In this document: positions 3,340 through 61,818 of the stretch, piece after piece | How the letters are laid out: the number at the start of each line of letters is the position of its first letter | Numbering within the stretch: position 1 is the stretch's first letter | Assembly (NCBI GenBank): GCA_015233405.1 | Contig: JADFXT010000006.1 | Location: 67,848 to 131,847 of the forward strand | Length of the DNA stretch: 64,000 nucleotides | Reading direction: 5' to 3' | From: Candidatus Omnitrophota bacterium | GTDB taxonomy: Bacteria; Omnitrophota; Gorgyraeia; Zapsychrales; Zapsychraceae | Translations under genes and position numbers: made by a program | The notes under the pieces: model-generated | Told to the model about the DNA's origin: nothing | Databases searched by the model: none | What the model saw: only the letters and a program-made list of their open reading frames with translations

Positions 3340-4529
3340 TGCCGGAAATCTTTCTGTTTTAATTCCATTGCCTTCCGATATATATTCATTAAAACTTGAT
3401 AATTTTTTTCTGCTGTATATTGTTCATCAAATATTTTATATGCATTTTGCCCCATTTGTCGAGCAACTTGGGGATTGCCCAAAAGACATCGAATTTTGAT
3501 CGCTAAATCTTCGACGTCGCCAGATTTAAACAACACCCCAGTCTTTCCATCTTCGACAATCTCTTTTATCGCACCAATATTACTGGCGATGACAGGAACC
3601 CCGCAAGCATAAGCCTCTATAATGACGCGGGAAAATGTTTCATAACATTCCGACGGGACAATTAAAAATGAGGCGCCTTGCATCAAACGCATTGTTTCCT
3701 CCTGCGGCTTCTGTCCTAAAAATTCTATGGGCAATCCTCGCGATAAAATCATTAAATCTTTTTTTAAAGGCCCATCGCCAATAATCTTAAGCGCTAGAGG
3801 ATTGGAAATCCCAGCCCAAGCTTTCACGAGCGTCATAACGCCTTTATAATCCCGTAAAGCCCCCACATATAAAGCATAATCCTTCCGGGTTTCTAAAGGA
3901 CGGTCGAAATTTTTATTCAAGAAATTGGGTTTTATAAAAATCTTCTCTGCCGGAAAACCGTTTTCCACAAATTTTTGTTTACAAAAAGCGCTCGGCGCAA
4001 TAAAACAACTCACCTTATTTGTGAGAATCTGTTTTTTCTGCAAGGAGTGAATAATCTTAGTCAGCAAGAAAGATTTCAAATAAGAATTCTTCCAGCATTT
4101 TTGAAGAATGGCTTGCTGAATGCCAGAAGATACGCAATGGCTGCAAATCTTTTCTCGTCGATAAAATAAGGCATTGGGGCATAAAAATCGATAATTATGA
4201 AGGGTCTGAACTATAGGAAGTTTTTCATCATAACAGGCATCGTAGACAGAAGGAGTTATGACAAAAAAGGTGTTGTGGATATGCGCAATATCTGGCTTTT
4301 CCCGTTGGATAAGACTTTTTATTTCCTGGTATACATCCTTTGACCAAAATACATCTTTGAAAAAGAAATTTATCTTCTTTAAAAATCCAAACTCTTCAAT
4401 CGTTTTATTGGATCGCAGATAACAGACAACCTGATGCCCTTGGGATTCCAACATCTTTTTTTCTGCCGCAACCACTTCATCTTCCCCGCCCTGATAATAA
4501 TAGCTATTATGGATAACAAGGATTTTCAC
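3336..4529 (-). CDS. glycosyltransferase family 4 (GT-B fold)
   Basis: 397 aa. N-lobe MKILVIHNSYYYQGGEDEVV. C-lobe PSECYETFSRVIIEAYACGVPVIASNIGAIKEIVEDGKTGVLF (E-x7-E type). Confidence 0.85.
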   Translation of the reverse strand: MKILVIHNSYYYQGGEDEVVAAEKKMLESQGHQVVCYLRSNKTIEEFGFLKKINFFFKDVFWSKDVYQEIKSLIQREKPDIAHIHNTFFVITPSVYDACYDEKLPIVQTLHNYRFLCPNALFYRREKICSHCVSSGIQQAILQKCWKNSYLKSFLLTKIIHSLQKKQILTNKVSCFIAPSAFCKQKFVENGFPAEKIFIKPNFLNKNFDRPLETRKDYALYVGALRDYKGVMTLVKAWAGISNPLALKIIGDGPLKKDLMILSRGLPIEFLGQKPQEETMRLMQGASFLIVPSECYETFSRVIIEAYACGVPVIASNIGAIKEIVEDGKTGVLFKSGDVEDLAIKIRCLLGNPQVARQMGQNAYKIFDEQYTAEKNYQVLMNIYRKAMELKQKDFRQ

Positions 4530-6373
4530 GCCGGTTTCCTCTGCTCTTTTAAATAGCCCAAGGTCATCCCGAACAATGTCCAGACCGGAATAGCTGTATA
4601 AGGAAGCTCAAAAATCAATAAAAAATTAGCCGCGACAAACCAACTTATCAAGATTCCGCACAAAAGAATTCCTGTCACAGATTTTAAGGCAATAAATCCT
4701 CTAATCATAAACCACAAAAGTCCTAACAAACTCAGGATAAAACAAAACCCAATAATTCCAGATCGATAAATGATACTTAAGAATGAATTATGCGAGGCGA
4801 TCCATCCGTCCCTTTGCCACTCGCCTTCGCCCCAATCTAAAATTTCCAGACTGATAGATCGAAAAGGCTTGCCGAAATCAAACCCAAAAAATTTCTTCTG
4901 CCCTGTTAATTCGGCAATCATATCTCGCCATATAAAAAGACGGAAAACAGTATTAATATGCGCCCCCTCGACATTTCTACCTACGAATGATTGGGGTGGG
5001 CCATCTGATTTCTTCATAATGTTTGGCCAAAAGTTCTTGCCCGAATTGACCAAAGGGCTATTAGAATCTTTTATTCTTAAAGTCTCAAGTTTTATCACTG
5101 ATTTTTGAAAAACAGATTCTTCCACAATTTCAACAGCTTTAACTGCTGGCTCCTCTTGGCTCATTACAGGCGAAGAAGTGGCAATTTGATTCAATATGGG
5201 TTTTTCAGATGCAGTATTAATCCCCGTCGAGTTTGTCAATGTTGCCGCTGGAGTTGGAGATGATTGCACTACGGATACATCAAGAACTTTAGCAGGCGAA
5301 GAAGTGCCAAGCTGTTTTAAGGTTAAATTTTCCGATTCTGGATTAACCACAGTATTTGTTATCGATACAATTTCAGGACCAGCTACGGACTTCTCCTGGA
5401 CTGAAGCTTTCTTTTCTTCGAGCGCTTTGACAGAAAGTGCTTCCGATGCTTTTATATTTGAGGATGATATGGATTTCTTTGATTTTTCCAACTGCGTAAA
5501 ATCTTCTATAAGATCATTTTCAGGATTATACAATGCAACATTTTCTAACTTTTTCGGGACAAAAGCTGGCTTTCTTTTCTCTATTTCCGTTTGGTATTCC
5601 TTAAACACGGCCGCAATCCGTTTGATTTGAAAGATGCTATTAAAAGCATTCACAAAAGAGTACCGTATCATGATGAATAAAAACAACGAGAAAATAGAAA
5701 CAAACAATAAAATTTTGTAAGGGCAACGAAATGGAGAAATAATCGTCATCGCGATTATTAGAAAACAAAAGCCAATAAAAAACCCAAAAACATACGTTCT
5801 CGCTTCAGCGATAAAAGCATGATAAGGAAGCGTTAATAGTAAAAGGCCCAAAAAGAAATATCTCTCCCTCTTATTCGGAAGAGATTTTATAAGAATACCG
5901 GTGAGAGCCGCCATTGTTAATACCCATGAAAAATCAAAAAATCTAGCTAGAAAAAGGGCACAAAAAAGAAAAATAATGCACTTTCTGATCTCTTCCGTAA
6001 ATAATTCCTTACGATAAAAAACAACTCCAAATAGAATAAAAATCGGATAATAAAAAAGCGCCGCATGCCGAAAGGCCAATGGACCCCAATGATGATAACC
6101 ATAAAAAGCCTTTGAGAGGACAAACACAGCATAGCCGATAACCAGCCACCATTGCCGATTTGTTAATTGTTTGAAATCAATCGATAGAAAAAATAATGGA
6201 AGGCATAAAAATAAAAGAATTTCACCGACAAACACAGGGAAATTCAAAAATGAAAAGCTCAAATGCATTTCTGCAAACACTCTTGGGAATAGAACATAAA
6301 ATAAACTAAATATGCCGATCAAACCGAGGCCGGTATATCTTAAAGTGTTTTTATAATCTTTTCTTTCGCGCAT
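4526..6373 (-). CDS. Wzy_C-domain membrane protein (O-antigen polymerase / ligase / PglL-type O-oligosaccharyltransferase family) with a large low-complexity insert
   Basis: 615 aa with at least 10 TM segments. RLFIWRDMI...GFDFGKPF...WIASHNSFLSIIYRSGIIGF matches the R-x3-W ... H-N-x-[FY]-L loop of Wzy_C proteins. Residues ~255-465 are S/T/P/E/V/K-rich. Confidence 0.6.
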   Translation of the reverse strand: MRERKDYKNTLRYTGLGLIGIFSLFYVLFPRVFAEMHLSFSFLNFPVFVGEILLFLCLPLFFLSIDFKQLTNRQWWLVIGYAVFVLSKAFYGYHHWGPLAFRHAALFYYPIFILFGVVFYRKELFTEEIRKCIIFLFCALFLARFFDFSWVLTMAALTGILIKSLPNKRERYFFLGLLLLTLPYHAFIAEARTYVFGFFIGFCFLIIAMTIISPFRCPYKILLFVSIFSLFLFIMIRYSFVNAFNSIFQIKRIAAVFKEYQTEIEKRKPAFVPKKLENVALYNPENDLIEDFTQLEKSKKSISSSNIKASEALSVKALEEKKASVQEKSVAGPEIVSITNTVVNPESENLTLKQLGTSSPAKVLDVSVVQSSPTPAATLTNSTGINTASEKPILNQIATSSPVMSQEEPAVKAVEIVEESVFQKSVIKLETLRIKDSNSPLVNSGKNFWPNIMKKSDGPPQSFVGRNVEGAHINTVFRLFIWRDMIAELTGQKKFFGFDFGKPFRSISLEILDWGEGEWQRDGWIASHNSFLSIIYRSGIIGFCFILSLLGLLWFMIRGFIALKSVTGILLCGILISWFVAANFLLIFELPYTAIPVWTLFGMTLGYLKEQRKPA

Positions 6374-6377
6374 GTCC

Positions 6378-7511
6378 TTATCCGAGATTTAAAATCTTGT
6401 GGGATGTCTTTCTTAAACAAAACATAGCTTTTAAAGCATGCATCTTCAAATATGTGCGGCTGACAAATTGCAATAGGCTTTGCGGCAGCCACGAGAGAAT
6501 GAACAACAAAAAGAAATTAAGATTAAAACCGAGCACCTTTAAAGCCGCCCGAGCCGTTTTACGAACCTCCAGCTTGTTCTTATTGAGAATATAAAAATTA
6601 ATTCTTCGCAGGAAAAATGTTTTAGCTTGTTGATAATACCAGAAAGAAACGCTTTGAGGGCTTAAGAGTAGCTCGTCTTTTAAATGACTATAAATAGTTT
6701 TGTGAATGTGGATGGCACGATTAAATTCATCAAAGCTCAGGCTCCCTTCCTCATAATGAGCCCTACACATCAGCCGAATTTCCTCGTCTGTGAATTCCTT
6801 ATTGCTGACATAATGGACATGATCACGGATGATCCCGGACGTTTCTATAACAGACCGATTATCCTGATGCACTTTGCTGGCCGATTGAGCGTGGATTCTT
6901 ATGGCCATAAGGATATCCGAATTGCTTGTGATCTTGGCCCCACGGCTCATTAAAGTGACCCATAGCCCGTAATCGGCGGCGATCTTATAATCATTGTTAT
7001 AACCGCCAGCCGCAAGAACCGTTTCTCTTTTCATCAAAGAGCTTCCGTGATTGATAGGAGAATTCACAATGGCACGCAAGAGAATATCATCTCTTACTGC
7101 AGGAGAAAAATAAACTTTTTGAATGCTCTTATTCGAGAAAGTCGCAAGCCTGGAGCTTAAAATATCATATTCGCCGTTCTTTTTTAAAAAATCCGTCTGA
7201 CTTTGAAGCCAATGCGAGAAGGCGATATCATCCGCATCCATTCGGGCGATATAATGACCTTTCGCTAACTGAAATCCGAGATTAAGCGATCGCGTCTGGC
7301 CTAAATTTTCTTTATTTTTGTGTAAAACAATTCGCTCATCTTTGTAAGATTGGATAACCTCAACAGATTTATCTTTGCTGGCGTCGTCGATAATAAGGAA
7401 CTCAAAATCCTGGAAAGTTTGATGAAAAACACTTTCGATGGACTGCGGCAAATATTTCTCCGCATTATAGACCGTCATCAATACCGTTATGGGATATTCT
7501 TTTATTGTCAT
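6378..7511 (-). CDS. glycosyltransferase family 2 (GT-A fold)
   Basis: 377 aa. ITVLMTVYNAEKYLPQSIESVFHQTFQDFEFLIIDDASKDKS plus an ARMDADD (DxD) motif. Confidence 0.85.
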   Translation of the reverse strand: MTIKEYPITVLMTVYNAEKYLPQSIESVFHQTFQDFEFLIIDDASKDKSVEVIQSYKDERIVLHKNKENLGQTRSLNLGFQLAKGHYIARMDADDIAFSHWLQSQTDFLKKNGEYDILSSRLATFSNKSIQKVYFSPAVRDDILLRAIVNSPINHGSSLMKRETVLAAGGYNNDYKIAADYGLWVTLMSRGAKITSNSDILMAIRIHAQSASKVHQDNRSVIETSGIIRDHVHYVSNKEFTDEEIRLMCRAHYEEGSLSFDEFNRAIHIHKTIYSHLKDELLLSPQSVSFWYYQQAKTFFLRRINFYILNKNKLEVRKTARAALKVLGFNLNFFLLFILSWLPQSLLQFVSRTYLKMHALKAMFCLRKTSHKILNLG

Positions 7512-7517: not shown

Positions 7518-8531
7518 CTAGAGATCTTCAGCATTCCCGATCCCATAATCCCCATCCGCCCATCCCAAATAGGACATTGACCTAATGCTTTGGACAAGAG
7601 GATAAACAATCCTTTGATGAACAAAATTCCTGCCAGGAAAATTCGGCACCATCCCGCGCCAAGACTCTTTCTTGATTTGACTTAAAATTTCTTGAAACTC
7701 TTTGTCTGAAATCTTTTGTTCTTCTTTAGCTATACGAGCAATCATCGTCGCATAATCAAACAATCGATAAATCAAACAAATCAGAATATATTTATAAATC
7801 CTGGAGCATTGTTGTTCTTTAGGAATACCAGCCAACATTTTCTTTAAAGCATCCGGCCGTTTAAAATATAATGCATCACCAAAAATCAATTGCCCCTTCC
7901 CAACAAAAGAAAAATAATCTTTTCTTTTCCAATAGGCACGACGTAAATCCATCAGTTCAAACCCCTGCGTTTCCATAAACTTGTCCACATCCCGAAAAAG
8001 TGGCTGGCCTTCATACAGAGATAAAAACTCGACTTCTAGCTCGACACCAAAATTATCCGCTAAAGCGCTCAATCCTCCGGATAAGATATCCAACTCACTA
8101 CCCTGAGTATCAATTTTTATGAAATCAATTTCAGAAATGTCTTGTTCTTGAATAACGGCATCTAAATTCTTGACCTTTGCCGCAGGAATGATTCGTTCCT
8201 GCATAACTCGAAATCGTTCGCTATTCGGATATTGGGAAACGATTTCCATATTGGGCCTATAGACTGAAGATTTGCCTGATTCTTTTGTGACATAAAATTT
8301 CAAATCTTGTGATTGTGAGAATAACGCAACATTTAAATACGTCAGTTGCGGGTCACTCTTAAGTTTTACAAATTCCCGATCATCCGGCTCAAAGGCAATG
8401 ATCCGCATCTTAGAACGCACAGAATCCCATTTACGGGCTATTCCACCCATAGCCCCCACATCTACATAAGTGAGAGGAAAGGCAGGGTCAACGTGTTTCC
8501 AAAAATACGAATATTTTTCAGGCATGATCAT
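7518..8531 (-). CDS. FkbM-family SAM-dependent methyltransferase
   Basis: 337 aa. Motifs: YVDVGAMGG, IIAFEPDDREF, IDFIKIDTQGSELDIL. Confidence 0.75.
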   Translation of the reverse strand: MIMPEKYSYFWKHVDPAFPLTYVDVGAMGGIARKWDSVRSKMRIIAFEPDDREFVKLKSDPQLTYLNVALFSQSQDLKFYVTKESGKSSVYRPNMEIVSQYPNSERFRVMQERIIPAAKVKNLDAVIQEQDISEIDFIKIDTQGSELDILSGGLSALADNFGVELEVEFLSLYEGQPLFRDVDKFMETQGFELMDLRRAYWKRKDYFSFVGKGQLIFGDALYFKRPDALKKMLAGIPKEQQCSRIYKYILICLIYRLFDYATMIARIAKEEQKISDKEFQEILSQIKKESWRGMVPNFPGRNFVHQRIVYPLVQSIRSMSYLGWADGDYGIGNAEDL

Positions 8532-8560
8532 CTCCTTATGGACCGGGCAATGCTAGCTCT

Positions 8561-9505
8561 TTAAGCTTTAGTGATTTTCTTATATGTCGTCGATGTCATC
8601 TTGACACGTTCTTCTATATTAAACTTCGAATTATAAATCATCACATCCGATTTGTCCGCATTACGCTGGTCACAGTTCTCACAAATCAACCCACTGCCTT
8701 TAAACTTGCCTTGCTCATGGCATTCGACCAGCTTTTTATATAACGGAGAAGAAAATATTTCTTTAAGACTCTGCGTCTTTAAATCTCCTATGGTCAACTT
8801 GCCGTCATAATCAAAGCAGCACATATTGACCGTTCCGTCGACCTGAATCTGTAACGGGCCGTTAAAAGGCCGCCCGCATGTGATCAGTTTTTTTCTTTGA
8901 ATGCTGCGGAAATGCCCAGCATCGACCCAATTATGCGGCCGCCAGACTTCGAGCAAATCAACCTTCCCTTCCCACTCTTTAATCCAATCCTTGACGACTT
9001 TATCATTAGCGCCGTGAACCACGTTATAAGTTAATATGAGCTGCGTGGTCTTTTTATTTCTTGCAATTTCCATAAGGTTGTCTTTAACTCTCGAGAAAAT
9101 ATTCTTATTCTCCAATCCATGCACCTTGGTATACGTCTGGGGTGTCGTTCCATACAAACTTACCCGAATAGGTGAAACACCTAAGTCCTCCAATTCTTTA
9201 AATATCTTAGGCGTTAATAACGAGCCGTTCGTTAAAATAAGGACGTCGAGTTGTGGCTTCTTTTTCTTAGCATATCTAATTTTATTCAATAACGTTTTGT
9301 CTAATAATGGCTCGCCCATGCCCGGGAACGTCAACGTCGTATATTGGGATGTTTCCTTCTGGATCTTGTCAAAAATCGTCTTAAACAATTCCAGCGACAT
9401 AATTTCTTTTGTGCGGGTCAATTGGTTGGGATGCGGACAAATAATACAGCGATAATTACACTTCGTCGAGACTTCAATACGCATATCATTGTTCTTGGGA
9501 ATCAT
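8561..9505 (-). CDS. radical SAM enzyme with SPASM/twitch-like C-terminal auxiliary-cluster region
   Basis: 314 aa. CX3CX2C triad CNYRCIIC near the N-terminus and PGMGEPLLD. Cys-rich tail: CGRPF...VDGTVNMCCFDYDG..IGDL..QSLKEIF...CENC. Confidence 0.8.
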   Translation of the reverse strand: MIPKNNDMRIEVSTKCNYRCIICPHPNQLTRTKEIMSLELFKTIFDKIQKETSQYTTLTFPGMGEPLLDKTLLNKIRYAKKKKPQLDVLILTNGSLLTPKIFKELEDLGVSPIRVSLYGTTPQTYTKVHGLENKNIFSRVKDNLMEIARNKKTTQLILTYNVVHGANDKVVKDWIKEWEGKVDLLEVWRPHNWVDAGHFRSIQRKKLITCGRPFNGPLQIQVDGTVNMCCFDYDGKLTIGDLKTQSLKEIFSSPLYKKLVECHEQGKFKGSGLICENCDQRNADKSDVMIYNSKFNIEERVKMTSTTYKKITKA

Positions 9506-9540
9506 GAATAAATAACCCTTTCTAAGATTTGAATCCGATC

Positions 9541-11034
9541 TTAATTATATTTCTCCAAACAAATCTGTCTAAGTTCATTAAAAATCCTGTTGCCCTCTTC
9601 ATCAAACGTCTCCGCCCTTTTAATTTTGGGCCAATATTCTCTCGGCAATTTCACATAAAGAACAAAAACCCTGCGAATGCCTTGGATATCCTGACGGGTT
9701 AAAAAAGGCTTCGGCATATCCATCGGCACGGCAGTATTTAAGGAGCCCAAGATCAAGTCGTCAGCAATATATCCTTTTTCCAGGCAGACCTTATGCAAAG
9801 GAGAACCGTGAAAAGGTGCAAAGACCGCACAGTTCACCGAATCCGCCGTGATCTGCCGGTTGAGCTCTATCGTATCAAAAACTAGATCCCTTGTTTCGCC
9901 GGGAAAGCCGATGATATTATTGACCGTTAACGGCACGCCCACTTCTGCGATGATCTGGGAAGCTTTGATCATCGTCGCATTATCAAATGTTTTCTTTAAA
10001 ACTTTGGTGCGGAATTCCGCATTGCCATGCTCGAGCCCCATGGACATCCGATGGCAACCGACATCCTTTAATTTTTGAATGCGCTCTTTAGTTACCGTCT
10101 CGGGCCGAGTTTGCATCCAAAAGGGCAATTTGATTTCTTTATAAAAATCAATAAACTCATCAAATTCCGCCTGCGGACCGACAAGAAAATTATCCGACGA
10201 AAAATAAATGTATTCTGCTTTCCACGCCTTTACCAACTCGCGGATTTCCCGTTTGATGGTCTCGATGTTCTTGATCCTGAAAAACGTTTGCCCATGCGAT
10301 TTATATAATTTTGCCATAGACGGTGAGTTACAAAACGCGCATTGAAAAGGGCAGCCTCTATTTGTCTCGACGGGAATTGTCTGATAGACCGTACCGGCCA
10401 TCGGACGAAAGAACCGCTCGGGCTCAAACAAACTATAATCCGGGACTGGCAAAGAATTGATATCCACCAGCGGCCTGACCGGATTACAAATGATCTGCCC
10501 ATCTTTCTTAAAGCACAAATTTTTTATCTGCGAACAATCTTTGCCAGCGGCCATGTTCTCACAAAATTCTACAACCGTTTCTTCTCCTTCGCCCACGCAG
10601 ACAAAATCCACAGCCTCGTGCGCCAAAACTTTTTCCGGAGCGAATGTCGGAAATACCCCTCCGGCCATGACCGGAATATCAAAATCCTTGACGACATTTA
10701 AAAGTTCCAATCCCCTTTGATAAGTGCACTCAAGCATGGAAATCAGAATCAAATCCGGTGTGAATTCCTGAATTTTCTTTCTTAGGTCATCTTCCGGCAT
10801 TGTTTCTTTAGGCTTAACCCCGCGGGTACCATAATCGAACGGTTTGACCTGTAGATTTTCCTTCTTCGCGTCGTCGGAACCTTTCATGCCCTTCTCGGGA
10901 TAGAGCGTCGTATCAAATAATGCCAACTCGAACCCTTTTGGCTTTAAAAGGGCGGTAAAAATACCGATAGAGATGGCCGGCGGATTCATGAGTAATCCGT
11001 TCGGATAAAGAAAAAGGATTTTATATTTAGACAT
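9541..11034 (-). CDS. B12-binding-domain radical SAM enzyme (class B, methyltransferase-type)
   Basis: 497 aa. N-terminal B12-binding-like Rossmann (KILFLYPN...DLILISMLE). Radical SAM triad CPFQCAFC. RBS AAGGAG (11050..11045) lies 10 nt upstream of the ATG. Confidence 0.85.
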   Translation of the reverse strand: MSKYKILFLYPNGLLMNPPAISIGIFTALLKPKGFELALFDTTLYPEKGMKGSDDAKKENLQVKPFDYGTRGVKPKETMPEDDLRKKIQEFTPDLILISMLECTYQRGLELLNVVKDFDIPVMAGGVFPTFAPEKVLAHEAVDFVCVGEGEETVVEFCENMAAGKDCSQIKNLCFKKDGQIICNPVRPLVDINSLPVPDYSLFEPERFFRPMAGTVYQTIPVETNRGCPFQCAFCNSPSMAKLYKSHGQTFFRIKNIETIKREIRELVKAWKAEYIYFSSDNFLVGPQAEFDEFIDFYKEIKLPFWMQTRPETVTKERIQKLKDVGCHRMSMGLEHGNAEFRTKVLKKTFDNATMIKASQIIAEVGVPLTVNNIIGFPGETRDLVFDTIELNRQITADSVNCAVFAPFHGSPLHKVCLEKGYIADDLILGSLNTAVPMDMPKPFLTRQDIQGIRRVFVLYVKLPREYWPKIKRAETFDEEGNRIFNELRQICLEKYN

Positions 11035-11072
11035 ATTCGTTAATCTCCTTCAAGCTGGCATATCATTTCTAA

Positions 11073-11107
11073 ATGGAGCCCCACGGGTTTACCCGTGGTA
11101 CCTCCAT
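11073..11107. other. GC-rich imperfect stem-loop in the largest intergenic gap
   Basis: Sequence atggag-cc-ccacggg-ttta-cccgtgg-tac-ctccat. A 7-bp core stem with a 4-nt loop, plus a 6-bp outer stem. It sits between the stop at 11178 and the start at 11034. No U-tract follows it on the minus-strand transcript. Confidence 0.5.
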
Positions 11108-11177
11108 CTCTTCTAGATTATTCCTCGCGAACATCCCCGTAGCAGGGCGATTTCGCCTTCTTTAATTTTTTTTGCAT

Positions 11178-13043
11178 TCATCCACAGGCTTGCCTATGGT
11201 TTTCCCTGCCTGCCGGCAGGCAGGTGCAGAGGTGGATAAATTTATTAAGACTGTCTTCCGTAATTTTATAAACATATTTCTCTAAATACAGGGCCGCTCT
11301 TTCTCTTTGAGAAGCGAACTTCTTGTCGTCGAGACTATCAATTTCCTCCAGTGTCTTCTTCAAAGAGTCCCCATAAGTAACCGTCCATTTTAGGTCATGG
11401 CAATTAAACAGCGTATCAAAACTTAAAATAAAACCATTATTAAAATGAATGACCGGCCGCCCCATCTTTAAGGCTTCCATAGCGACCGCCGTTCCCCAAT
11501 AGATAACCACATTGGCCTCCGTGATGTCTTCTATTAAGGATTTATTATGAGATATCGTAATATTGGGCTTTAAATATAGTTCAGGAGATATCCGTTTCTT
11601 AAGATACTCCCACGGCAACAATGGATGTGTTCGAATATTAATTTTATAACGCTCGTCACCTTTCAGCTCCCGAAGGACATAATCCGCCATCAGCTGAACA
11701 TCTTTGATCCCTTCCAAGGCCAATAAAATATTTCCGTCGCGTTTGCGGGGGAGAGCTGTTTTAGAAAACACATTTTCGAATCTCAGCCCACAGGCAGGGA
11801 TAATCTTGTCCTCAGGATAAGAACCATAATGCCTCATCATCTCTTTGCTTTCCAGTCCTAACGTCAATATTTTATCCGGCAAAGGGACCGCGGCATATTC
11901 TTTCGCGCCAAGAAACAAATTGATGGCGGCCGGCGGGATCACCGTATGCTGATAACTGAAAATTTGCGTCGTCGGCGAATATTTTCTTAAGGCCAAGATC
12001 GTCATTTTCTCCCACGGATTATTTTCATAAACCATTACGATTTTTTTTACTCGCACCTTTTGGGCAAGTCGTTTCATGGCCGAATAACAAAGGAATTGAT
12101 ACGGCTGAATTTTATGGCCGGTTTGTCGCAATTCATTCTTGACGATTTCTGAAGCCTCATATCCGCAGAAAGAAATCTCCTTTCGGACTTTCACTCTGAA
12201 AAACAGTGGAATAAACGAATCTCTCCAAGCGTCCCACCAGGACACGAAATATTCCAGTGGAATGATAAGGTCCGTAGATATTTTTCGGATCTCTTGCATA
12301 GCGCGCCGATAATTTCCCAACACATTGACCAGGATCAAAAGGTTTTCCTTACCACGAACATGCGCCGTCAACTTTCCAAAGAAGGCGTCTTGATAAACCC
12401 CTGTGGTTTTAAAAGAACTATCATAGGTGAAACTTTTAATCACATAATACGGCTCATGGGTTAGCCTTGCCGCTATCCTTTTCTGAAGAAAAACACGGGC
12501 ACAAAGAATTCTTCCCGTCACAAGAAGAACGGTCCAGAGCGCATTGACGATCCTCTTAATATAGCTGGCAAGAAAAGCCTTGCCCTTTAAATAAAATCCC
12601 TTAAACCGTATGCCGTAGTCATTTCCCTTGATAAGACCAGCAAGATGATTGGACAAAAATGGCGACGCTCCGATAATGAATAAAAAATCATAATCCTTCC
12701 GCTTAATAGCGTTCATGCATTTTAAGAAACTTTCTAACGCGCTCGGCAATCTGGAGGTATAACGGTTCTTGGACGAGATATCCGTGGCCCACCACAACAA
12801 GCCCTTGTTATCCAAGGATAGCTCCGCGATCAAATCATTATAGGCGCTTATAAATTCCTCGCTGGACAATCCGGACAAAGGATCCTTGACGGCAAACACG
12901 TTCTGCGCAGATAAAAATGATTCAACATCCTCATTGATAGGCTCAAAGGAAAGATATTTACAATTCAGCCCTTTTTCCTTAAGGATTTTCGCAATCTGCG
13001 GTTTGATTATATGGCTATTGGGAATAAAAATAATTTGGGACAT
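11178..13043 (-). CDS. uncharacterised surface-carbohydrate biosynthesis protein, putative GT-B/TagF/capsule-type transferase
   Basis: 621 aa with no motif I can name with certainty. The C-terminal third (ILLALEG...NIRTHPLLP...VVIYWGTAVAMEALKMGRPVIHF) resembles the C-lobe of GT-B transferases. Confidence 0.35.
   Translation of the reverse strand: MSQIIFIPNSHIIKPQIAKILKEKGLNCKYLSFEPINEDVESFLSAQNVFAVKDPLSGLSSEEFISAYNDLIAELSLDNKGLLWWATDISSKNRYTSRLPSALESFLKCMNAIKRKDYDFLFIIGASPFLSNHLAGLIKGNDYGIRFKGFYLKGKAFLASYIKRIVNALWTVLLVTGRILCARVFLQKRIAARLTHEPYYVIKSFTYDSSFKTTGVYQDAFFGKLTAHVRGKENLLILVNVLGNYRRAMQEIRKISTDLIIPLEYFVSWWDAWRDSFIPLFFRVKVRKEISFCGYEASEIVKNELRQTGHKIQPYQFLCYSAMKRLAQKVRVKKIVMVYENNPWEKMTILALRKYSPTTQIFSYQHTVIPPAAINLFLGAKEYAAVPLPDKILTLGLESKEMMRHYGSYPEDKIIPACGLRFENVFSKTALPRKRDGNILLALEGIKDVQLMADYVLRELKGDERYKINIRTHPLLPWEYLKKRISPELYLKPNITISHNKSLIEDITEANVVIYWGTAVAMEALKMGRPVIHFNNGFILSFDTLFNCHDLKWTVTYGDSLKKTLEEIDSLDDKKFASQRERAALYLEKYVYKITEDSLNKFIHLCTCLPAGRENHRQACG
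11180..11237. repeat. GC-rich palindromic element overlapping the 3' end of the 621-aa CDS
   Basis: Perfect 20-nt palindrome cctgcctgccggcaggcagg (11205..11224). It is flanked by an outer inverted repeat, atccac (11180..11185) / gtggat (11232..11237). The element encodes the last ~19 codons (IHLCTCLPAGRENHRQACG) of the ORF 11178..13043. Confidence 0.6.
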
Positions 13044-13058: not shown

Positions 13059-14960
13059 TTAAGAACTTGTAAGTAGTTTACGAAATCTTTCTATTGCTTT
13101 TCCGTCTCGAAAAGGATCCATCAAGGGAGAATTCAAGGGAAAAGGATTCTGCCAGAGCCCCGACCTAACTTCTTCAACCTTCTTTTTAAGTTCCTCATAA
13201 CTATGGGTCACAACACCTGGTGTTTGGCTGTAGATCATCTCTTTATACAACCCTTGTGGGTCGTGCCACACCGCCGGCTTATTAAAACTTAGCGCTTCAA
13301 AAGTTGTGGACGTAAAAGGAAAAGAAATGATCATGTCGGCAAAATTAATAACTTCTGTTGCATCAGAAAAGTTAAGAAATATTTTTATTCGCGGGTGGTC
13401 TGACATTTTCTGATATAAACGCAGCAAATCGCCCCCTCCACCAGGGTCAAAAAGAGAAAGGAACTCTCTACCTTTTTTCTCTTTCAGAAACAAAAAAATG
13501 CGCGAATCGCTTTCCACTAACCTTAAGAGATGTTCAGCAAACATTGTTCCTTCACTATAATTAACCAGACCATTTAAAGAATAGGTTGTGTCAAATGCCC
13601 CGATCACAAAATGCTGTTCATCCTTGTTCATGCCATCTAAACATTGCACGGTTTCATATTGACTCCACAAACATCCGACAATATGCGTTTCTTTTAAATG
13701 ATGCGGGTGGGAGCAAAAAAAATCACGGACAAACTCATTCCACGTCACAAAATGATCATAAAATAAATATGTCCAAAAAGGATGCCGCATCAAACACGAT
13801 TTACTCTCCGTACGAAAATTGCATCCCATGTTAATTGAATCTGTAAAATACCAAGTTTCTATTCCCGCCTGTTTTAACGCACAATTCCTGGCAATGTGAT
13901 GAAAACCAAAATCGCAATGAGTAACAAAATGTTTTATCTCAATTTTCTCCAAGGCATTTTTCCATCTAAAATAAACAAATAAAATCGCCATGGCATGTTG
14001 GAATTCGCCCTTATTTTGTTCGATGTAGTTCTTCCAAAAAATATTCAGCAATCGCCACCAAACGTGAAAATGGCAGAACAACTGTCCTGGTCTAGGAAGA
14101 TAAACCATATGAAATGGCTGTTGAGCTAATTTTATTCTTTGCGCTTTGCTGAATTGAGAAGATGAAAAGCAAACAACATCTTTCACCTGGATAGACTTTC
14201 CATCAGCAAAAAAAGCAGGGCCGCGTTTATTATCCTCTAACTGCCGAGAGCTGATTAAGGCAACACCAAAACGATAAGATTTTTTAGCGGAAACTTTTGG
14301 AAAAAACAATCCTAAAAATAGGCTAGCTAACGTTTGCAATAGAAGCAGAACGCTGGTCCCTATAATTTTCCCCATATTTTTTCTAAAATCTTGATGATAA
14401 CTCTCTTTGGAAAATTCTAGATTGTCATGATGGAAAAAATCCTGCCGACTCAAAAGTAGCAACTCGCGAATTTCATTATAATCCGCGATATTAACTTCCG
14501 GATAAAATATAATTGGATCGAAATTCAAATATTTAGAAACTCGCTCGACAACAATGTTCTGCGCGTAAAACTCTCCCAATCTTTCACATAAAAGCTTCTT
14601 AAAAGCATTTTCCGCTTCCCGATCTTTTAAAACATCACAAACAAAATCAATCAACAGCTTATGCTTCCGATAATATGCTGGATAAACAGCCTCCACAACT
14701 TCAACCGCTTTGTCCATGGCTATGCCATGAATCGTTTTACTTTCTATATCCTTAGTAGAAATAAAGAGTATCTTGCCTTCTTGAACAAGCTGATCAATAT
14801 GTGAAGGCAGAGAAGAAGGAAATTCTGCAATTTTTCCACCTTTTTTATGATGACAAGCAAAAGGCTCCATAGCATAAACAAGTGAAGCATCCTTCAGATA
14901 AGCCTCTACTGTTTTCTCATTTAGCTTAAAAAACGATTCTAAAACAATTTTCCGACTCAT
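13059..14960 (-). CDS. uncharacterised polysaccharide-biosynthesis protein with C-terminal PFTS motif (putative GT-B-like transferase)
   Basis: 633 aa with one central hydrophobic stretch (IIGTSVLLLLQTLASLFLGLFF). The C-terminus reads ...DHPRIKIFL...ADMIISFPFTSTTFEALSFNKPAV. I recall an NCBI family named for this PFTS motif, but that needs HMM confirmation. Confidence 0.45.
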   Translation of the reverse strand: MSRKIVLESFFKLNEKTVEAYLKDASLVYAMEPFACHHKKGGKIAEFPSSLPSHIDQLVQEGKILFISTKDIESKTIHGIAMDKAVEVVEAVYPAYYRKHKLLIDFVCDVLKDREAENAFKKLLCERLGEFYAQNIVVERVSKYLNFDPIIFYPEVNIADYNEIRELLLLSRQDFFHHDNLEFSKESYHQDFRKNMGKIIGTSVLLLLQTLASLFLGLFFPKVSAKKSYRFGVALISSRQLEDNKRGPAFFADGKSIQVKDVVCFSSSQFSKAQRIKLAQQPFHMVYLPRPGQLFCHFHVWWRLLNIFWKNYIEQNKGEFQHAMAILFVYFRWKNALEKIEIKHFVTHCDFGFHHIARNCALKQAGIETWYFTDSINMGCNFRTESKSCLMRHPFWTYLFYDHFVTWNEFVRDFFCSHPHHLKETHIVGCLWSQYETVQCLDGMNKDEQHFVIGAFDTTYSLNGLVNYSEGTMFAEHLLRLVESDSRIFLFLKEKKGREFLSLFDPGGGGDLLRLYQKMSDHPRIKIFLNFSDATEVINFADMIISFPFTSTTFEALSFNKPAVWHDPQGLYKEMIYSQTPGVVTHSYEELKKKVEEVRSGLWQNPFPLNSPLMDPFRDGKAIERFRKLLTSS

Positions 14961-17905: not shown

Positions 17906-17926
17906 AATCGGTTATTTTCCCTGAAA

Positions 17927-18172: not shown

Positions 18173-18189
18173 AAAACGCTCTCCTTTTA

Positions 18190-20515: not shown

Positions 20516-20535
20516 GCCCCCTGATCTCAACCTTT

Positions 20536-21678: not shown

Positions 21679-21679
21679 C

Positions 21680-23692: not shown

Positions 23693-23697
23693 AATGT

Positions 23698-29874: not shown

Positions 29875-30629
29875 TTTTTCACCACTTGGTCTTCTTTTAA
29901 AGATTTCAATAATCCCTCATTCCTGACAATGTGCGCATTGATTTCATAGATATCTCGTCGATTATCAAGAAAACTTTTAATATCCTCTGCCGTGAAATGG
30001 GGCTTACCCTTCCGGGCAAATTCTTCAAGAATGGTTTTAATCACAATAAAATCTTCCTCTTCATCCAGCGTAAAACGATATTTGCTGTCATCCGTCTTAT
30101 TGCCTAGAGTAATCTTTTTAAAGAGTTCCGGATGTTTATGAAGATATTGCGTCACATGCTCCCGCTCGGATTTCAGTTTGGATTCTTTCCAGGCAACTTC
30201 CAAACTCTTAAAAGAAAGAACTTCACAATCCAGCCCTTCGGCAAAGGTCGGACCTGTATGGACATAATCCACCTTATCTTTCTCATAAACACCAATCGCG
30301 CCGTCGCAAATTGCCGGATCTAATAGCGGGCTATCACCGGTAATCCGGACAACCGTCTGTGGCTGATATTTCTTTGCCGCCTGATAAAATCTATCCAACA
30401 CATCTTCTTCGCTGCCGCGGTAAACATCAAAGCCAATACTTTTTACAAAATCATGCAAAGGGTCGCTTTCCGCATCCACAGATGTCGCGACGACAACCTT
30501 ATCAATTTTCTTAGACATGCTTAAACGTTCCAACAAATGCTGGATCATGGGCTTTCCCAGAACAGTCTTAAGGACTTTTCCGGGTAACCGTGACGACGAC
30601 ATCCGAGCTTGAACAATGGCTAAAATCAT
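29871..30629 (-). CDS. SpsF/FlmC-type cytidylyltransferase (CTP_transf_3)
   Basis: 252 aa. N-terminus ILAIVQARMSSSRLPGKVL. Confidence 0.7.
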   Translation of the reverse strand: MILAIVQARMSSSRLPGKVLKTVLGKPMIQHLLERLSMSKKIDKVVVATSVDAESDPLHDFVKSIGFDVYRGSEEDVLDRFYQAAKKYQPQTVVRITGDSPLLDPAICDGAIGVYEKDKVDYVHTGPTFAEGLDCEVLSFKSLEVAWKESKLKSEREHVTQYLHKHPELFKKITLGNKTDDSKYRFTLDEEEDFIVIKTILEEFARKGKPHFTAEDIKSFLDNRRDIYEINAHIVRNEGLLKSLKEDQVVKK

Positions 30630-31940: not shown

Positions 31941-31942
31941 GA

Positions 31943-34950: not shown

Positions 34951-34952
34951 AT

Positions 34953-61817: not shown

Positions 61818-61818
61818 A

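What the first reader, a model, noticed from the sequence alone, without database searches (positions are those of the whole stretch)
7518..11034. Class B (B12) radical SAM + SPASM radical SAM + FkbM methyltransferase trio inside a glycan assembly block
Three consecutive genes encode a cobalamin-type radical SAM enzyme, a small SPASM/twitch radical SAM enzyme and an FkbM methyltransferase. B12-radical SAM enzymes are established C-methyltransferases at unactivated carbons, for example in aminoglycoside and fosfomycin pathways. They are not part of any textbook O-antigen or NulO pathway. With the third rSAM at 44703..45857, the locus has three radical enzymes and at least eight methyltransferase-like genes. 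This predicts a heavily C- and O/N-methylated or otherwise radically rearranged sugar.
Basis: partly seen in the sequence, partly recalled or inferred. Interest (0 to 1): 0.55.

Follow-up and report, generated by a model that had tools for sequence, protein, structure and literature searches.

The report
Radical SAM sugar-tailoring genes in glycan locus
Three adjacent genes in an uncultivated Omnitrophota bacterium encode two radical enzymes and a methyltransferase that most likely decorate an acidic surface sugar, and the two radical enzymes belong to large unstudied families that travel with an unannotated glycosyltransferase across many uncultivated bacteria and archaea.

Summary
At 7518-11034 (minus strand) lie an FkbM methyltransferase, a small radical SAM (rSAM) enzyme and a B12-domain rSAM enzyme, inside a 64-kb, single-strand glycan locus.

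Refinements:
- **Small rSAM.** It is a BtrN-like twitch enzyme with one Cys4 auxiliary cluster, not a full SPASM.
- **B12-rSAM.** It has class-I cobalamin-rSAM architecture but reaches no characterised family's cut-off.
- **Trio.** It is not a conserved unit. The FkbM fills a swappable sugar-methyltransferase slot beside the twitch rSAM.
- **Conserved partner.** Both rSAMs are linked to a Pfam-less ~600-aa protein (window 11178-13043). I show it has a GT-B fold with an invariant His-Pro motif, as in CMP-Kdo and CMP-sialic-acid transferases. CMP-sugar-acid synthesis genes also co-occur.
- **Distribution.** B12-rSAM homologs (41-66% identity) occur in many bacterial and archaeal phyla, and all sampled records are MAGs or SAGs.

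Most likely function: anaerobic tailoring of a CMP-activated ulosonic acid residue by C-methylation, alcohol oxidation and O-methylation. The chemistry is inferred, not shown. No paper in the searched library describes it. It is a new variant of known enzyme kinds, of moderate interest.

The parts
9541..11034 (-). B12-binding-domain radical SAM enzyme, 497 aa, class-I architecture. Member of a large uncharacterised family.
   Evidence: Pfam. CxxxCxxC at 228-235. AF2 pLDDT 91.3. Foldseek top hits: TsrM 7e-23, QCMT/MgmA 1.6e-21, AprD4, OxsB, CysS, TokK. No NCBIfam cut-off reached. About 3000 homologs at E<1e-10.
8561..9505 (-). BtrN-like twitch-domain radical SAM enzyme, 314 aa, with a radical SAM cluster plus one Cys4 auxiliary cluster.
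   Evidence: Pfam. Seven invariant Cys: 16, 20, 23, 210, 229, 275, 278. Family profile against PDB: BtrN 1.1e-18, next hit 5e-11. Close subfamily at 63-72% identity, mostly Omnitrophota.
7518..8531 (-). FkbM-family SAM methyltransferase, 337 aa, with a ~140-aa C-terminal extension. Sits in a variable methyltransferase slot next to the twitch rSAM.
   Evidence: PF05050 and TIGR01444 above cut-off. Ortholog at 39% identity, E=5e-71, abutting the twitch rSAM in L089. The same slot in L085/L092 holds an unrelated TIGR04371 sugar O-methyltransferase.
11178..13043 (-). 'P616': Pfam-less 621-aa GT-B-fold protein with invariant E340 and H473-P474. Probable CMP-ulosonic-acid-type glycosyltransferase and the most tightly linked partner of both rSAM families.
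   Evidence: No Pfam hit. All homologs named 'hypothetical'. AF2 pLDDT 90.8. Foldseek: GT-B glycosyltransferases and 2-epimerases at about 1e-8 to 4e-9. KpsC 0.003 with HP aligned. Invariant residues. Adjacency statistics. 7648 representative clusters.
11035..11177 (-). 143-nt intergenic spacer with a stable GC-rich hairpin, followed by an AAGGAG ribosome-binding site before the B12-rSAM start. Possible partial transcriptional punctuation.
   Evidence: Sequence. RNA fold -41.8 kcal/mol, z = -3.16. No Rfam family.
6378..7511 (-). GT2 glycosyltransferase, 6 nt downstream of the FkbM gene. Syntenic with L085 and L137.
   Evidence: PF00535 at 3e-30. Synteny.
4526..6373 (-). Wzy/O-antigen-ligase-like membrane protein, 615 aa. 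Syntenic with the 660-aa protein of L085.
   Evidence: Weak Wzy_C hit. 31% identity, E=1e-80 to L085 12127-14109.
13059..14960 (-). PFTS-motif polysaccharide biosynthesis protein, 633 aa.
   Evidence: TIGR04417 at 120 bits against a cut-off of 100.
44703..45857 (-). Third radical SAM enzyme, 384 aa, of unknown subgroup. Lies between a class-I methyltransferase and a GFO oxidoreductase plus GT2.
   Evidence: PF04055 at 35.2 bits. CxxxCxxC at residue 58. No PDB sequence hit.
60846..62538 (-). PGDH-like 2-hydroxyacid dehydrogenase (60846-61817) and CTP_transf_3 cytidylyltransferase (61819-62538). Homologs of genes that accompany the B12-rSAM in most other loci.
   Evidence: Pfam. Hits in 42 and 34 of 80 B12-anchored loci. 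Cassette strings.
28825..35684 (-). NulO core: NeuB (28825-29874) and CTP_transf_3 (29871-30629 and 34953-35684), with aminotransferase, aldo-keto reductase and an RmlD-DegT fusion.
   Evidence: Pfam.

Best explanation
The three genes are probably co-transcribed tailoring enzymes of a surface-glycan assembly line in an uncultivated Omnitrophota bacterium. That line builds and polymerises CMP-activated ulosonic (nonulosonic or Kdo-like) acid sugars.

1. **B12-rSAM.** It is a class-I cobalamin-type radical SAM enzyme of an uncharacterised, widely spread family. Its genes are coupled to the adjacent Pfam-less GT-B 'HP-motif' transferase (P616) and to CMP-sugar-acid synthesis genes. Most likely it abstracts a hydrogen from an unactivated sugar carbon with the 5'-deoxyadenosyl radical and delivers a methyl group from methylcobalamin. 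The substrate would be the CMP-sugar donor or the residue that P616 has just transferred.
2. **Twitch rSAM.** It has BtrN's cofactor layout, a SAM cluster plus one Cys4 auxiliary cluster. Most likely it oxidises a secondary sugar alcohol to a ketone without oxygen. That ketone could then be reduced, transaminated or used for further modification.
3. **FkbM.** It O-methylates a hydroxyl of the same or a neighbouring residue. It occupies a slot beside the twitch rSAM that other genomes fill with an unrelated sugar O-methyltransferase.

Shown here: the folds and cofactor motifs, the glycan context, and the genomic linkage. Inferred: the substrates, the reaction types and the order of steps.
For: **Gene reality and classes.**

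**Operon-like packing.** Gaps are 35, 29, 6 and 4 nt from the B12-rSAM to the Wzy-like gene. All 56 ORFs of at least 150 aa but one (a 154-aa ORF nested inside a larger minus-strand gene) lie on the minus strand.

**B12-rSAM.**
- The Foldseek top hits are all class-I B12-rSAMs plus AprD4.
- The N-domain aligns with the cobalamin domains of QCMT, OxsB, TokK and CysS, with GG and GEGE conserved.
- The model has a 5-strand/5-helix Rossmann fold, as described for class I (PMC12931638).
- Every group containing a functionally characterised enzyme includes C-methyltransferases (PMC12931638).

**Linkage anchored on the B12-rSAM.** The set is 80 species-representative loci, of which 60 have at least 9 genes. 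Within those 60:

| Partner | Loci |
|---|---|
| P616-like | 46/60 |
| CTP_transf_3 | 43/60 |
| 2-hydroxyacid dehydrogenase | 34/60 |
| twitch/SPASM rSAM | 23/60 |

 A P616-like gene is directly adjacent on the same strand for 32 of 111 B12-rSAM genes. Shuffling gene order within loci gives 11.5 +/- 3.0, and 0 of 2000 shuffles reach 32.

**P616.** It has a GT-B fold and an invariant H473-P474 that aligns with the HP of KpsC. The HP motif is shared by CMP-Kdo and CMP-sialic-acid transferases (PMC10148158, PMC5420450). A sister clade hits the BFO_1060 NulO-transferase family.

**Twitch rSAM.**
- It has 3 + 4 invariant Cys.
- BtrN is the best PDB match by seven orders of magnitude.
- BtrN is a twitch enzyme with a Cys4 auxiliary cluster that oxidises an alcohol to a ketone (PMC10337720).
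- In twitch-anchored metagenome loci, a P616-like gene lies within 3 genes in 17 of 25. KpsF/GutQ arabinose-5-P isomerase and a sugar O-methyltransferase are the commonest direct neighbours.

**FkbM.** Orthologs lie next to the twitch rSAM in L089, L137 and L149.
Against: - No substrate or reaction is demonstrated.
- AprD4 and ArsL show that a Rossmann-like N-domain does not prove cobalamin binding. AprD4 gives the best profile score over the radical SAM core (1.7e-16).
- Non-methylating B12-rSAMs (BchE, HpnJ, ThnL, ladderane enzymes) cannot be separated from methylases by sequence. The top NCBIfam hit is HpnJ.
- The trio is not conserved as a unit. B12-rSAMs near the close twitch subfamily are mostly distant paralogs at 19-32% identity.
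- The CTP_transf_3-adjacent 'SPASM' genes in B12-anchored loci are only about 25% identical to the window's twitch rSAM.
- The KpsC hit for P616 is marginal (E about 0.003). The GT-B fold is shared with nucleotide-sugar 2-epimerases.
- Both locus samples were drawn through short peptide patterns and crude ORF calling, so the frequencies are approximate.
Confidence: 0.5

Rival explanations
1. The B12-domain rSAM does radical chemistry on the sugar that is not methylation. Options are a ring contraction or rearrangement (as proposed for HpnJ, and shown for OxsB) or an AprD4-type cobalamin-independent diol dehydration that leads to deoxygenation with a partner reductase.
For: HpnJ is the best NCBIfam hit. 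AprD4 is the best profile hit over the radical SAM core and a top structural hit. SDR or reductase genes often lie near the B12-rSAM homologs. The review states that non-methylating members cannot be recognised by sequence and that AprD4 lacks B12.
Against: AprD4 aligns only over residues 191-429. The N-domain aligns with genuine cobalamin domains and keeps GG and GEGE. All hits to named families are far below cut-off. Methylation is the reaction of most characterised class B enzymes.
Confidence: 0.25
2. The twitch rSAM is not a dehydrogenase. It would be a radical sugar epimerase or decarboxylase (NeoN-like or BlsE-like chemistry) acting on an ulosonic acid or its precursor.
For: BlsE (cytosylglucuronate decarboxylase) and DesII appear among weaker hits. 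The substrate class (acid sugars) has a carboxylate. KpsF/GutQ isomerase adjacency suggests action early in a Kdo-like pathway.
Against: BtrN is much the best match, and its four auxiliary-cluster Cys positions are the only additional invariant Cys. No further conserved Cys is available as a hydrogen donor. A Cys hydrogen donor for NeoN-type epimerases is recalled from memory and was not tested here. The BlsE score is 32.8 bits against a 400 cut-off.
Confidence: 0.2
3. The three genes are independent, mix-and-match tailoring genes that happen to be adjacent. Each acts on a different residue of the glycan, and there is no pathway logic linking them.
For: The trio is not conserved. The close twitch subfamily occurs without any B12-rSAM in the P0222 locus and in L089. 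The FkbM slot is swappable. Related loci carry many rSAM paralogs: L088 has five B12-rSAM genes (one cut by the locus edge) plus two twitch/SPASM genes.
Against: The order B12-rSAM / P616 / twitch / methyltransferase / GT2 / Wzy-like recurs in L085/L092. The segment twitch / FkbM / GT2 / Wzy-like recurs in L137, with P616 upstream but no B12-rSAM in the 21-kb locus. FkbM-twitch adjacency recurs in L089 and L149, and both rSAM families share the same partner family, P616.
Confidence: 0.3
4. The rSAM enzymes mature a cofactor or a ribosomal peptide and are unrelated to the glycan.
For: SPASM/twitch and B12-rSAM enzymes are common RiPP and cofactor maturases. Weak NCBIfam hits go to such families.
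Against: All such hits are far below cut-off. I noticed no obvious precursor-peptide or cofactor-pathway genes in the window or in the roughly 165 related loci, though I did not search for short ORFs systematically. The neighbours are consistently glycosyltransferases and nucleotide-sugar enzymes.
Confidence: 0.03

Closest known systems
QCMT/MgmA (PDB 9CCB), TokK, CysS, TsrM, OxsB: structurally characterised class-I B12-dependent radical SAM enzymes
   Same: Same domain order: N-terminal 5-strand Rossmann domain followed by a radical SAM barrel with CxxxCxxC. They are the best structural matches. The N-domain aligns by sequence with GG and GEGE conserved.
   Different: Only 13-19% identity. 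The substrates differ (protein glutamine, carbapenem, tryptophan, nucleotide). The family here has a conserved insert between strands 2 and 3 (residues ~42-94, several invariant) and a glycan-locus context not reported for any of them.
GenK / GenD1 / Fms7 / MoeK5 / Fom3: B12-rSAM C-methyltransferases acting on sugars or on a CMP-linked substrate
   Same: They methylate unactivated carbons of aminoglycoside or moenomycin sugars. Fom3 acts on a cytidylylated substrate (the Fom3 substrate is from my own knowledge; the enzymes are listed in PMC12931638). This is the closest functional analogy for a CMP-sugar-linked B12-rSAM.
   Different: They belong to antibiotic pathways of actinomycetes, not to surface-glycan loci. 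NCBIfam hits to named B12-rSAM families (e.g. PhpK, HpnR) are all far below cut-off; GenK, GenD1, Fms7, MoeK5 and Fom3 were not among the listed hits.
BtrN (butirosin 2-deoxy-scyllo-inosamine dehydrogenase)
   Same: Twitch domain with a single Cys4 auxiliary cluster. Best PDB match at 1.1e-18, with both the core and the twitch region aligned. It acts on a carbohydrate-like alcohol.
   Different: The family here has no DOI synthase context in the window. It is embedded in glycan loci next to GT-B proteins, KpsF/GutQ isomerases and sugar methyltransferases. About 45 residues longer than BtrN. No NCBIfam equivalog applies.
AprD4 (apramycin radical SAM diol dehydratase)
   Same: Best profile score over the radical SAM core and a strong structural match. 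It has a sugar substrate.
   Different: AprD4 binds no cobalamin, and its N-domain does not align with this family.
KpsC/KpsS beta-Kdo transferases and bacterial sialyl- and NulO-transferases (NmB-polyST, Tanf_01245/BFO_1060)
   Same: For P616: GT-B fold and an invariant HP motif aligned to that of KpsC. Neighbouring genes make CMP-activated ulosonic acids.
   Different: The sequence match is marginal (E about 0.003). No D/E-D/E-G or QXXXD motif was identified. P616 has an extra ~190-residue N-terminal alpha/beta domain and is not covered by Pfam.

Membership tests
Class B (cobalamin-dependent) radical SAM enzymes, class-I architecture | CxxxCxxC motif for the SAM-binding [4Fe-4S] cluster | tested here: met
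   C228/C232/C235. Invariant in 16 homologs and at least 90% conserved in 119.
Class B (cobalamin-dependent) radical SAM enzymes, class-I architecture | N-terminal Rossmann-type B12-binding domain (5 strands, 5 helices) preceding the radical SAM domain | tested here: met
   PF02310 at 48.5 bits against 32.1. AF2 secondary structure. Foldseek top hits TsrM, QCMT, OxsB, CysS and TokK. GG and GEGE conserved, and S-x-L invariant in the 16-sequence alignment.
Class B (cobalamin-dependent) radical SAM enzymes, class-I architecture | Actual binding of cobalamin (AprD4 and ArsL are look-alikes that do not bind it) | not testable with these tools
   Indirect only: the N-domain aligns with true cobalamin domains and not with AprD4.
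Class B (cobalamin-dependent) radical SAM enzymes, class-I architecture | Methyl transfer from methylcobalamin to substrate | not testable with these tools
   Sequence cannot separate methylases from non-methylating members (PMC12931638).
Named B12-rSAM families (HpnJ, BchE, PhpK, QCMT, BzaD, HpnR, AprD4 family, etc.) | Score at or above the curated NCBIfam cut-off | tested here: not met
   Best scores: HpnJ 107.3 against 577.6; TIGR04013 105.2 against 251; BchE 103.3 against 481; AprD4 family 59.8 against 500.
Twitch-domain radical SAM enzymes (BtrN type) | CxxxCxxC plus a C-terminal domain carrying one fully Cys-ligated auxiliary [4Fe-4S] cluster | tested here: met
   Exactly 7 invariant Cys in 32 family members: 16, 20, 23, 210, 229, 275, 278. 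The first of the four auxiliary Cys (C210) falls at BtrN residue 169 and the other three align with Cys in the BtrN twitch region; that these are the BtrN auxiliary-cluster ligands is from my own knowledge. BtrN has Cys4 ligation (PMC10337720).
Full SPASM radical SAM enzymes (two auxiliary clusters) | Seven- to eight-Cys SPASM motif for two auxiliary clusters | tested here: not met
   Only four conserved C-terminal Cys. C230 and C262 are conserved in under 10% of members. The Pfam SPASM model still matches because it also covers twitch domains.
BtrN orthologs (2-deoxy-scyllo-inosamine dehydrogenase) | Same substrate and pathway (DOI synthase and aminotransferase context) | tested here: not met
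   No sugar-phosphate cyclase lies near the gene in the window. The neighbours are glycan genes.
RiPP or cofactor maturase SPASM families (PqqE, mycofactocin, W-cofactor maturase, sactisynthases) | Curated cut-off and a precursor-peptide or cofactor gene context | tested here: not met
   W_rSAM_matur 85.3 against 380; PqqE 41.7 against 381; MftC 35.8 against 265. No such context was seen in any locus.
FkbM-family methyltransferases | FkbM domain above the curated cut-offs | tested here: met
   PF05050 at 65.5 bits against 22.7, covering 1-173 of 173. TIGR01444 at 61.8 against 37.7.
CMP-ulosonic-acid-dependent GT-B transferases (for P616, 11178-13043) | GT-B two-Rossmann fold | tested here: met
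   AF2 pLDDT 90.8. Foldseek shows 384 PDB matches at E<=0.001. The top ones are GT-B glycosyltransferases and 2-epimerases of the same fold.
CMP-ulosonic-acid-dependent GT-B transferases (for P616, 11178-13043) | Conserved HP motif in the nucleotide-binding domain | tested here: met
   H473-P474 is invariant in 29 and in 40 sequences. It aligns with the KpsC 'KvHP'. The motif's meaning is taken from PMC10148158 and PMC5420450.
CMP-ulosonic-acid-dependent GT-B transferases (for P616, 11178-13043) | Second motif (D/E-D/E-G of sialyltransferases, or QXXXD of beta-Kdo transferases) and transferase activity with a CMP-sugar | tested here: inconclusive
   No such motif stands out among the invariant residues (the E340-N-N-P-W-E345 block is conserved instead). 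Activity is not testable here.

The most novel reading that the evidence does not exclude
The B12-rSAM and the Pfam-less GT-B 'HP' transferase form a conserved two-component system. Together with BtrN-like twitch rSAMs, it makes and installs C-methylated, or otherwise radically remodelled, CMP-activated ulosonic acids. This would be an oxygen-independent class of surface-sugar modification, widespread in uncultivated anaerobic bacteria and archaea (Omnitrophota, CPR, Planctomycetota, Nitrospirota, Methanoperedens and others) and absent from the textbook NulO and Kdo pathways.
Probability: 0.3. Interest if true: 0.75.

Novelty: new variant of a known kind. Interest (0 to 1): 0.55.

Why it matters
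Radical SAM tailoring of cell-surface sugars is essentially undescribed. Five of the nine full-text searches looked for a link between radical SAM or B12-rSAM enzymes and nonulosonic acids, CMP-ulosonic sugars, O-antigen loci or Omnitrophota glycan genes, and none returned a paper describing one. A 2026 review of B12-rSAM enzymes lists no glycan-locus member.

The families found here are large:
- about 3000 B12-rSAM hits;
- 674 twitch rSAM hits;
- 7648 representative clusters for the unannotated GT-B partner.

In the loci sampled they occur only in organisms that have never been cultured, so their glycans have never been analysed.

If the proposed chemistry holds, it would add C-methylated or anaerobically oxidised ulosonic acids to the known repertoire of surface sugars. 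It would also supply new biocatalysts for modifying sialic-acid-like sugars, and it would give a function to a large 'hypothetical protein' family.

Tried and rejected
- **Exact-sequence look-up of the B12-rSAM** found no contig, although a 100%-identical NCBI protein exists. I used homologs instead.
- **Rfam scan of the whole window** gave no hit, so no cobalamin riboswitch.
- **Promoter and terminator scan** gave counts at or near the shuffle expectation (promoter-like sites below it, terminator-like sites about 1.7 sd above) and no convincing site.
- **PDB sequence search** gave nothing for the FkbM or the third rSAM.
- **Is the 331-aa gene in the FkbM slot of the closest syntenic locus an FkbM homolog?** No. 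It is a TIGR04371 sugar O-methyltransferase.
- **Are the PFTS protein, the 529-aa protein (46698) and the TagF-like protein (56860) P616 relatives?** Only weak, local hhalign matches (probabilities 7%, 0.2% and 20%). I treat these as hints only.
- **Early idea from B12-anchored loci.** The recurring order CTP_transf_3, SPASM rSAM, then aminotransferase or SDR suggested a BtrN/BtrS-like oxidation-transamination pair. I downgraded it for this window, because those SPASM genes are only about 25% identical to the window's twitch rSAM and the window's copy is not next to a cytidylyltransferase.
- **Phosphonate (Fom3-like) pathway.** I saw no PEP-mutase-type gene in the window's Pfam results.
- **Literature.** Five searches linking rSAM or B12-rSAM to NulO, CMP-sugars, O-antigen or Omnitrophota glycan genes returned nothing relevant.

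Full report
**1. Observation**

- a 497-aa protein at 9541-11034;
- a 314-aa protein at 8561-9505;
- a 337-aa protein at 7518-8531.

Pfam gives Radical_SAM plus B12-binding for the first, Radical_SAM plus SPASM for the second and the FkbM domain for the third, all above the gathering scores. NCBIfam confirms the FkbM assignment. Both rSAMs carry an intact CxxxCxxC. Both have hundreds to thousands of full-length homologs. The genes are real.

They are packed with gaps of 35, 29, 6 and 4 nt down to a GT2 and a Wzy-like gene. A 143-nt spacer upstream of the B12-rSAM holds a stable hairpin (z = -3.2) and an AAGGAG ribosome-binding site.

**2. Context in the window**

All ORFs of at least 150 aa but one lie on the minus strand; the exception (34492-34956, + strand, 154 aa) is nested inside the 32800-34950 gene and is probably spurious. 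Pfam scans of the whole window show a very large glycan locus:
- an initiating sugar transferase, WecG/TagA, GT1, GT2, a Wzy-like protein and an ABC exporter;
- two NeuB synthases, three CTP_transf_3 cytidylyltransferases and two UDP-GlcNAc 2-epimerases;
- a PtmE-like CBS-nucleotidyltransferase, HisH/HisF-like amidotransferase genes, AsnB, and several aminotransferases and dehydratases;
- six class-I or FkbM methyltransferases;
- three rSAM genes, the third at 44703-45857.

'At least eight methyltransferase-like genes' is not reproduced: I count seven including the B12-rSAM.

The source is a Candidatus Omnitrophica MAG (100%-identical NCBI proteins on a 141-kb contig).

**3. The B12-domain rSAM**

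No curated NCBIfam family is approached (best HpnJ at 107 bits against 577.6).

The nearest solved structures by sequence are QCMT/MgmA (9CCB) and AprD4. 9CCB is identified as QCMT in PMC12931638.

An AlphaFold model (pLDDT 91.3) has an N-terminal five-strand, five-helix Rossmann domain followed by the radical SAM barrel. Its best structural matches are TsrM, QCMT, AprD4, OxsB, CysS and TokK. That is the class-I architecture described in the review.

The review also warns of two things. AprD4 and ArsL have a similar N-domain but bind no cobalamin. Non-methylating members cannot be distinguished from methylases by sequence.

Against an AprD4-like reading:
- AprD4 aligns only over the radical SAM core (residues 191-429);
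- QCMT, OxsB, TokK and CysS align through the N-domain;
- G125-G126 and the GEGE stretch (148-151) are at least 90% conserved in 119 family members, paralogs included, and S99-x-L101 is invariant in the 16-sequence alignment of closer homologs.

Cobalamin binding itself remains untested.

**4. The small rSAM**

Across 32 family members there are exactly seven invariant cysteines: the CxxxCxxC triad plus C210, C229, C275 and C278. That means one auxiliary cluster, so this is a twitch domain and not a full SPASM.

A profile of the close subfamily finds BtrN at 1.1e-18. The next hit is at 5e-11, and DesII, another sugar-acting rSAM, is at 1e-6. The four extra cysteines align with Cys residues in the BtrN twitch region; C210 falls at BtrN residue 169, which I recall as an auxiliary-cluster ligand. 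BtrN is a twitch enzyme with a Cys4 auxiliary cluster that oxidises a cyclitol alcohol to a ketone (PMC10337720).

Cofactor and RiPP maturase families score far below their cut-offs.

**5. Is the trio a unit? Neighbourhoods anchored on the B12-rSAM**

A scan of species-representative genomes returned 80 loci with homologs at 41-66% identity. All are MAGs or SAGs. They come from Omnitrophota, Planctomycetota, Nitrospirota, Acidobacteriota, Elusimicrobia, CPR groups, Dehalococcoidia, Alphaproteobacteria (including Pelagibacteraceae) and Clostridia. Archaea are also represented: Woesearchaeota, Nitrososphaerales, Methanoperedens and Methanomicrobiales.

I clustered the flanking ORFs de novo. Among the 60 loci with at least nine genes:

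| Family | Loci |
|---|---|
| Pfam-less protein of ~560-620 aa ('P616-like') | 46 |
| CTP_transf_3 cytidylyltransferase | 43 |
| NAD epimerase/dehydratase | 43 |
| PGDH-like 2-hydroxyacid dehydrogenase | 34 |
| HAD phosphatase | 24 |
| Twitch/SPASM rSAM | 23 |
| HpcH/HpaI pyruvate aldolase | 15 |
| FkbM | 10 |

In addition, 26 loci carry more than one B12-rSAM paralog.

A P616-like gene is directly adjacent on the same strand to 32 of 111 interior B12-rSAM genes. Shuffling gene order within loci gives 11.5 +/- 3.0, and none of 2000 shuffles reaches 32. Four different P616-like clades take part in these adjacencies.

In the window, P616 is the gene immediately upstream of the B12-rSAM (11178-13043).

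**6. Neighbourhoods anchored on the twitch rSAM**

The window's twitch rSAM belongs to a tight subfamily (63-72% identity, mostly Omnitrophota). The 'SPASM' genes in the B12-anchored loci are only about 25% identical to it. I therefore anchored a second, independent sample on the close subfamily: 80 metagenome loci.

Of 25 anchors with at least three genes on each side:

| Within three genes of the twitch rSAM | Loci |
|---|---|
| P616-like gene | 17 |
| Any B12-rSAM (mostly distant paralogs; only one at 40% identity or more) | 8 |
| FkbM | 1 |

The commonest direct neighbours are a KpsF/GutQ arabinose-5-phosphate isomerase (18 loci; 298 bits against a 204 cut-off) and a TIGR04371 'putative sugar O-methyltransferase' (12 loci).

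In the closest syntenic locus (L085/L092) the order is B12-rSAM (63-64% identity), P616, twitch, methyltransferase, GT2, Wzy-like. The methyltransferase there is the TIGR04371 type and is unrelated to the window's FkbM.

FkbM orthologs do sit against the twitch rSAM in three loci:
- L089: 39% identity, E = 5e-71, with a 4-nt overlap;
- L137: twitch, one gene, FkbM, GT2, Wzy-like, which is the window's order;
- L149.

The FkbM is therefore one of at least two interchangeable sugar methyltransferases in a slot beside the twitch rSAM. The twitch subfamily also occurs with no B12-rSAM nearby. Related loci can be extremely rSAM-rich: L088 has five B12-rSAM genes (one cut by the locus edge) plus two twitch/SPASM genes in 17 kb.

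**7. What is P616?**

It has no Pfam hit, and every homolog is named 'hypothetical'. An exhaustive profile search finds 7648 representative clusters at E <= 1e-3 and 1832 at <= 1e-30.

The AlphaFold model (pLDDT 90.8) matches GT-B glycosyltransferases (BshA, OleD, CalG, WbnH, MurG) and the same-fold UDP-GlcNAc 2-epimerases at about 1e-8.

Its only invariant residues include E340 and H473-P474. A family profile aligns the 'K-x-H-P' with that of KpsC, the CMP-Kdo-dependent beta-Kdo transferase, at a marginal E of about 0.003.

The literature states that beta-Kdo transferases share an HP motif with CMP-sialic-acid-dependent transferases (PMC10148158). It also states that HP is important for CMP-Neu5Ac binding and is present in the Tannerella Pse/Leg transferases (PMC5420450). 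A sister clade of P616 hits the BFO_1060 transferase family.

Together with the constant presence of CTP_transf_3 and ulosonic-acid synthesis genes (NeuB, HpcH aldolase, KpsF/GutQ), this makes a CMP-ulosonic-acid transferase the best reading. It rests on inference.

**8. Mechanism proposed**

1. The locus makes CMP-activated ulosonic acids, and P616 transfers one of them.
2. The B12-rSAM methylates an unactivated carbon of that sugar, either on the CMP-donor or after transfer. It would use the 5'-deoxyadenosyl radical and methylcobalamin.
3. The twitch rSAM oxidises a secondary alcohol to a ketone, with the auxiliary cluster as the electron outlet.
4. The FkbM O-methylates a hydroxyl.

Only the folds, the cofactor motifs and the genomic linkage are shown here.

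The main rivals are:
- non-methylating chemistry by the B12-rSAM (HpnJ/OxsB-type rearrangement, or AprD4-type dehydration);
- epimerase or decarboxylase chemistry by the twitch rSAM;
- independence of the three genes.

A cofactor or RiPP role is very unlikely.

**9. Comparison with what is known, and novelty**

The enzymes are new subfamilies of known superfamilies. The closest functional analogues are in antibiotic pathways: GenK, GenD1, Fms7, MoeK5, Fom3, BtrN and AprD4. None is a surface-glycan enzyme.

Five full-text searches found no paper linking rSAM or B12-rSAM enzymes to NulO, CMP-ulosonic sugars, O-antigen loci or Omnitrophota glycan genes. The 2026 review lists no glycan-locus member.

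I therefore rate this a new variant of a known kind and of moderate interest. However, the conserved unit is 'rSAM plus GT-B HP-transferase plus CMP-sugar genes', not the B12/SPASM/FkbM trio.

**10. Caveats**

- Both locus samples were retrieved through short conserved peptide patterns.
- ORFs were called by a simple script.
- Clusters were built by BLAST single linkage, so the frequencies are approximate.
- The KpsC and hhalign matches are weak.
- No experiment on any member of these families was found.

Noticed in passing
window 11178-13043 (and relatives P0121-P0443): A large unannotated protein family (7648 representative clusters at E<=1e-3) with a confident GT-B fold and an invariant His-Pro motif. 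It is probably a new family of CMP-ulosonic-acid transferases. It has an extra ~190-residue N-terminal alpha/beta domain.
   Followed up: yes
window 1-64000: All 56 ORFs of at least 150 aa but one (a 154-aa ORF nested in a larger gene) are on the minus strand, with negative GC skew throughout. The whole window is one giant glycan locus with 2 NeuB, 3 CTP_transf_3, 2 UDP-GlcNAc 2-epimerases and an ABC exporter. This implies at least two or three different CMP-activated acid sugars.
   Followed up: partly
window 15060-27869: A sub-block of unclear product. It holds a GNAT, a FabG-like SDR, a FabH-like ketosynthase III, a GNAT/FemAB-like protein, a HisC-like aminotransferase, a 670-aa HMGL/DmpG-like aldolase, a methyltransferase, an amidohydrolase, an ATP-grasp ligase, an RraA-like aldolase and another methyltransferase. 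It may build an unusual acyl or amino-acid side chain, or a non-NeuB ulosonic acid.
   Followed up: no
window 8001-12000: GC content is 0.41-0.44 here against 0.37-0.40 on both sides, and the AT skew changes sign. The B12-rSAM and twitch genes may be a recombined-in module, which fits the mix-and-match pattern seen across loci.
   Followed up: no
window 11035-11177: A stable GC-rich hairpin (-41.8 kcal/mol for the spacer, z = -3.2) lies between P616 and the B12-rSAM, followed by only a short U-tract and then AAGGAG-N8-ATG. It may be an attenuator or a processing site. There is no Rfam match.
   Followed up: partly
window 4526-6373: The Wzy-like membrane protein carries a ~150-residue Ser/Thr/Pro/Glu-rich low-complexity insert (about residues 290-440). 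The L085 homolog has a different insert at the same place.
   Followed up: no
window 18190-19209 and 16248-17033: The 339-aa ORF matches only about 80 residues of the DegT aminotransferase model, so it is a possible remnant or a divergent protein, and it overlaps the next ORF by 40 nt. The SDR ORF called from TTG overlaps the ketosynthase gene by 106 nt, and its Pfam match starts at residue 36, so the true start is probably further downstream.
   Followed up: no
window 32800-34950: A 716-aa fusion of an RmlD-like reductase/epimerase domain with a full DegT aminotransferase domain.
   Followed up: no
L088 (1-16933), L087, L089: Related glycan loci are extraordinarily rich in radical SAM genes. 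L088 has five B12-rSAM genes (one cut by the locus edge) plus two twitch/SPASM genes in 17 kb. A recurring motif is '~600-aa Pfam-less protein + ~370-aa rSAM (Fer4_12, weak SPASM) + GT2'. The window's 46698-42732 block (529-aa protein, methyltransferase, rSAM, GFO oxidoreductase, GT2) resembles it.
   Followed up: partly
L005-L084: In B12-anchored loci from many phyla there is a recurring cassette: CTP_transf_3, a SPASM/twitch rSAM, then either a HisC-like aminotransferase or an SDR, a methyltransferase and the B12-rSAM. A PGDH-like dehydrogenase, a HAD phosphatase, a cyclase-like protein and P616 lie alongside. The aminotransferase/SDR alternation suggests that a keto intermediate is either aminated or re-reduced.
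   Followed up: partly
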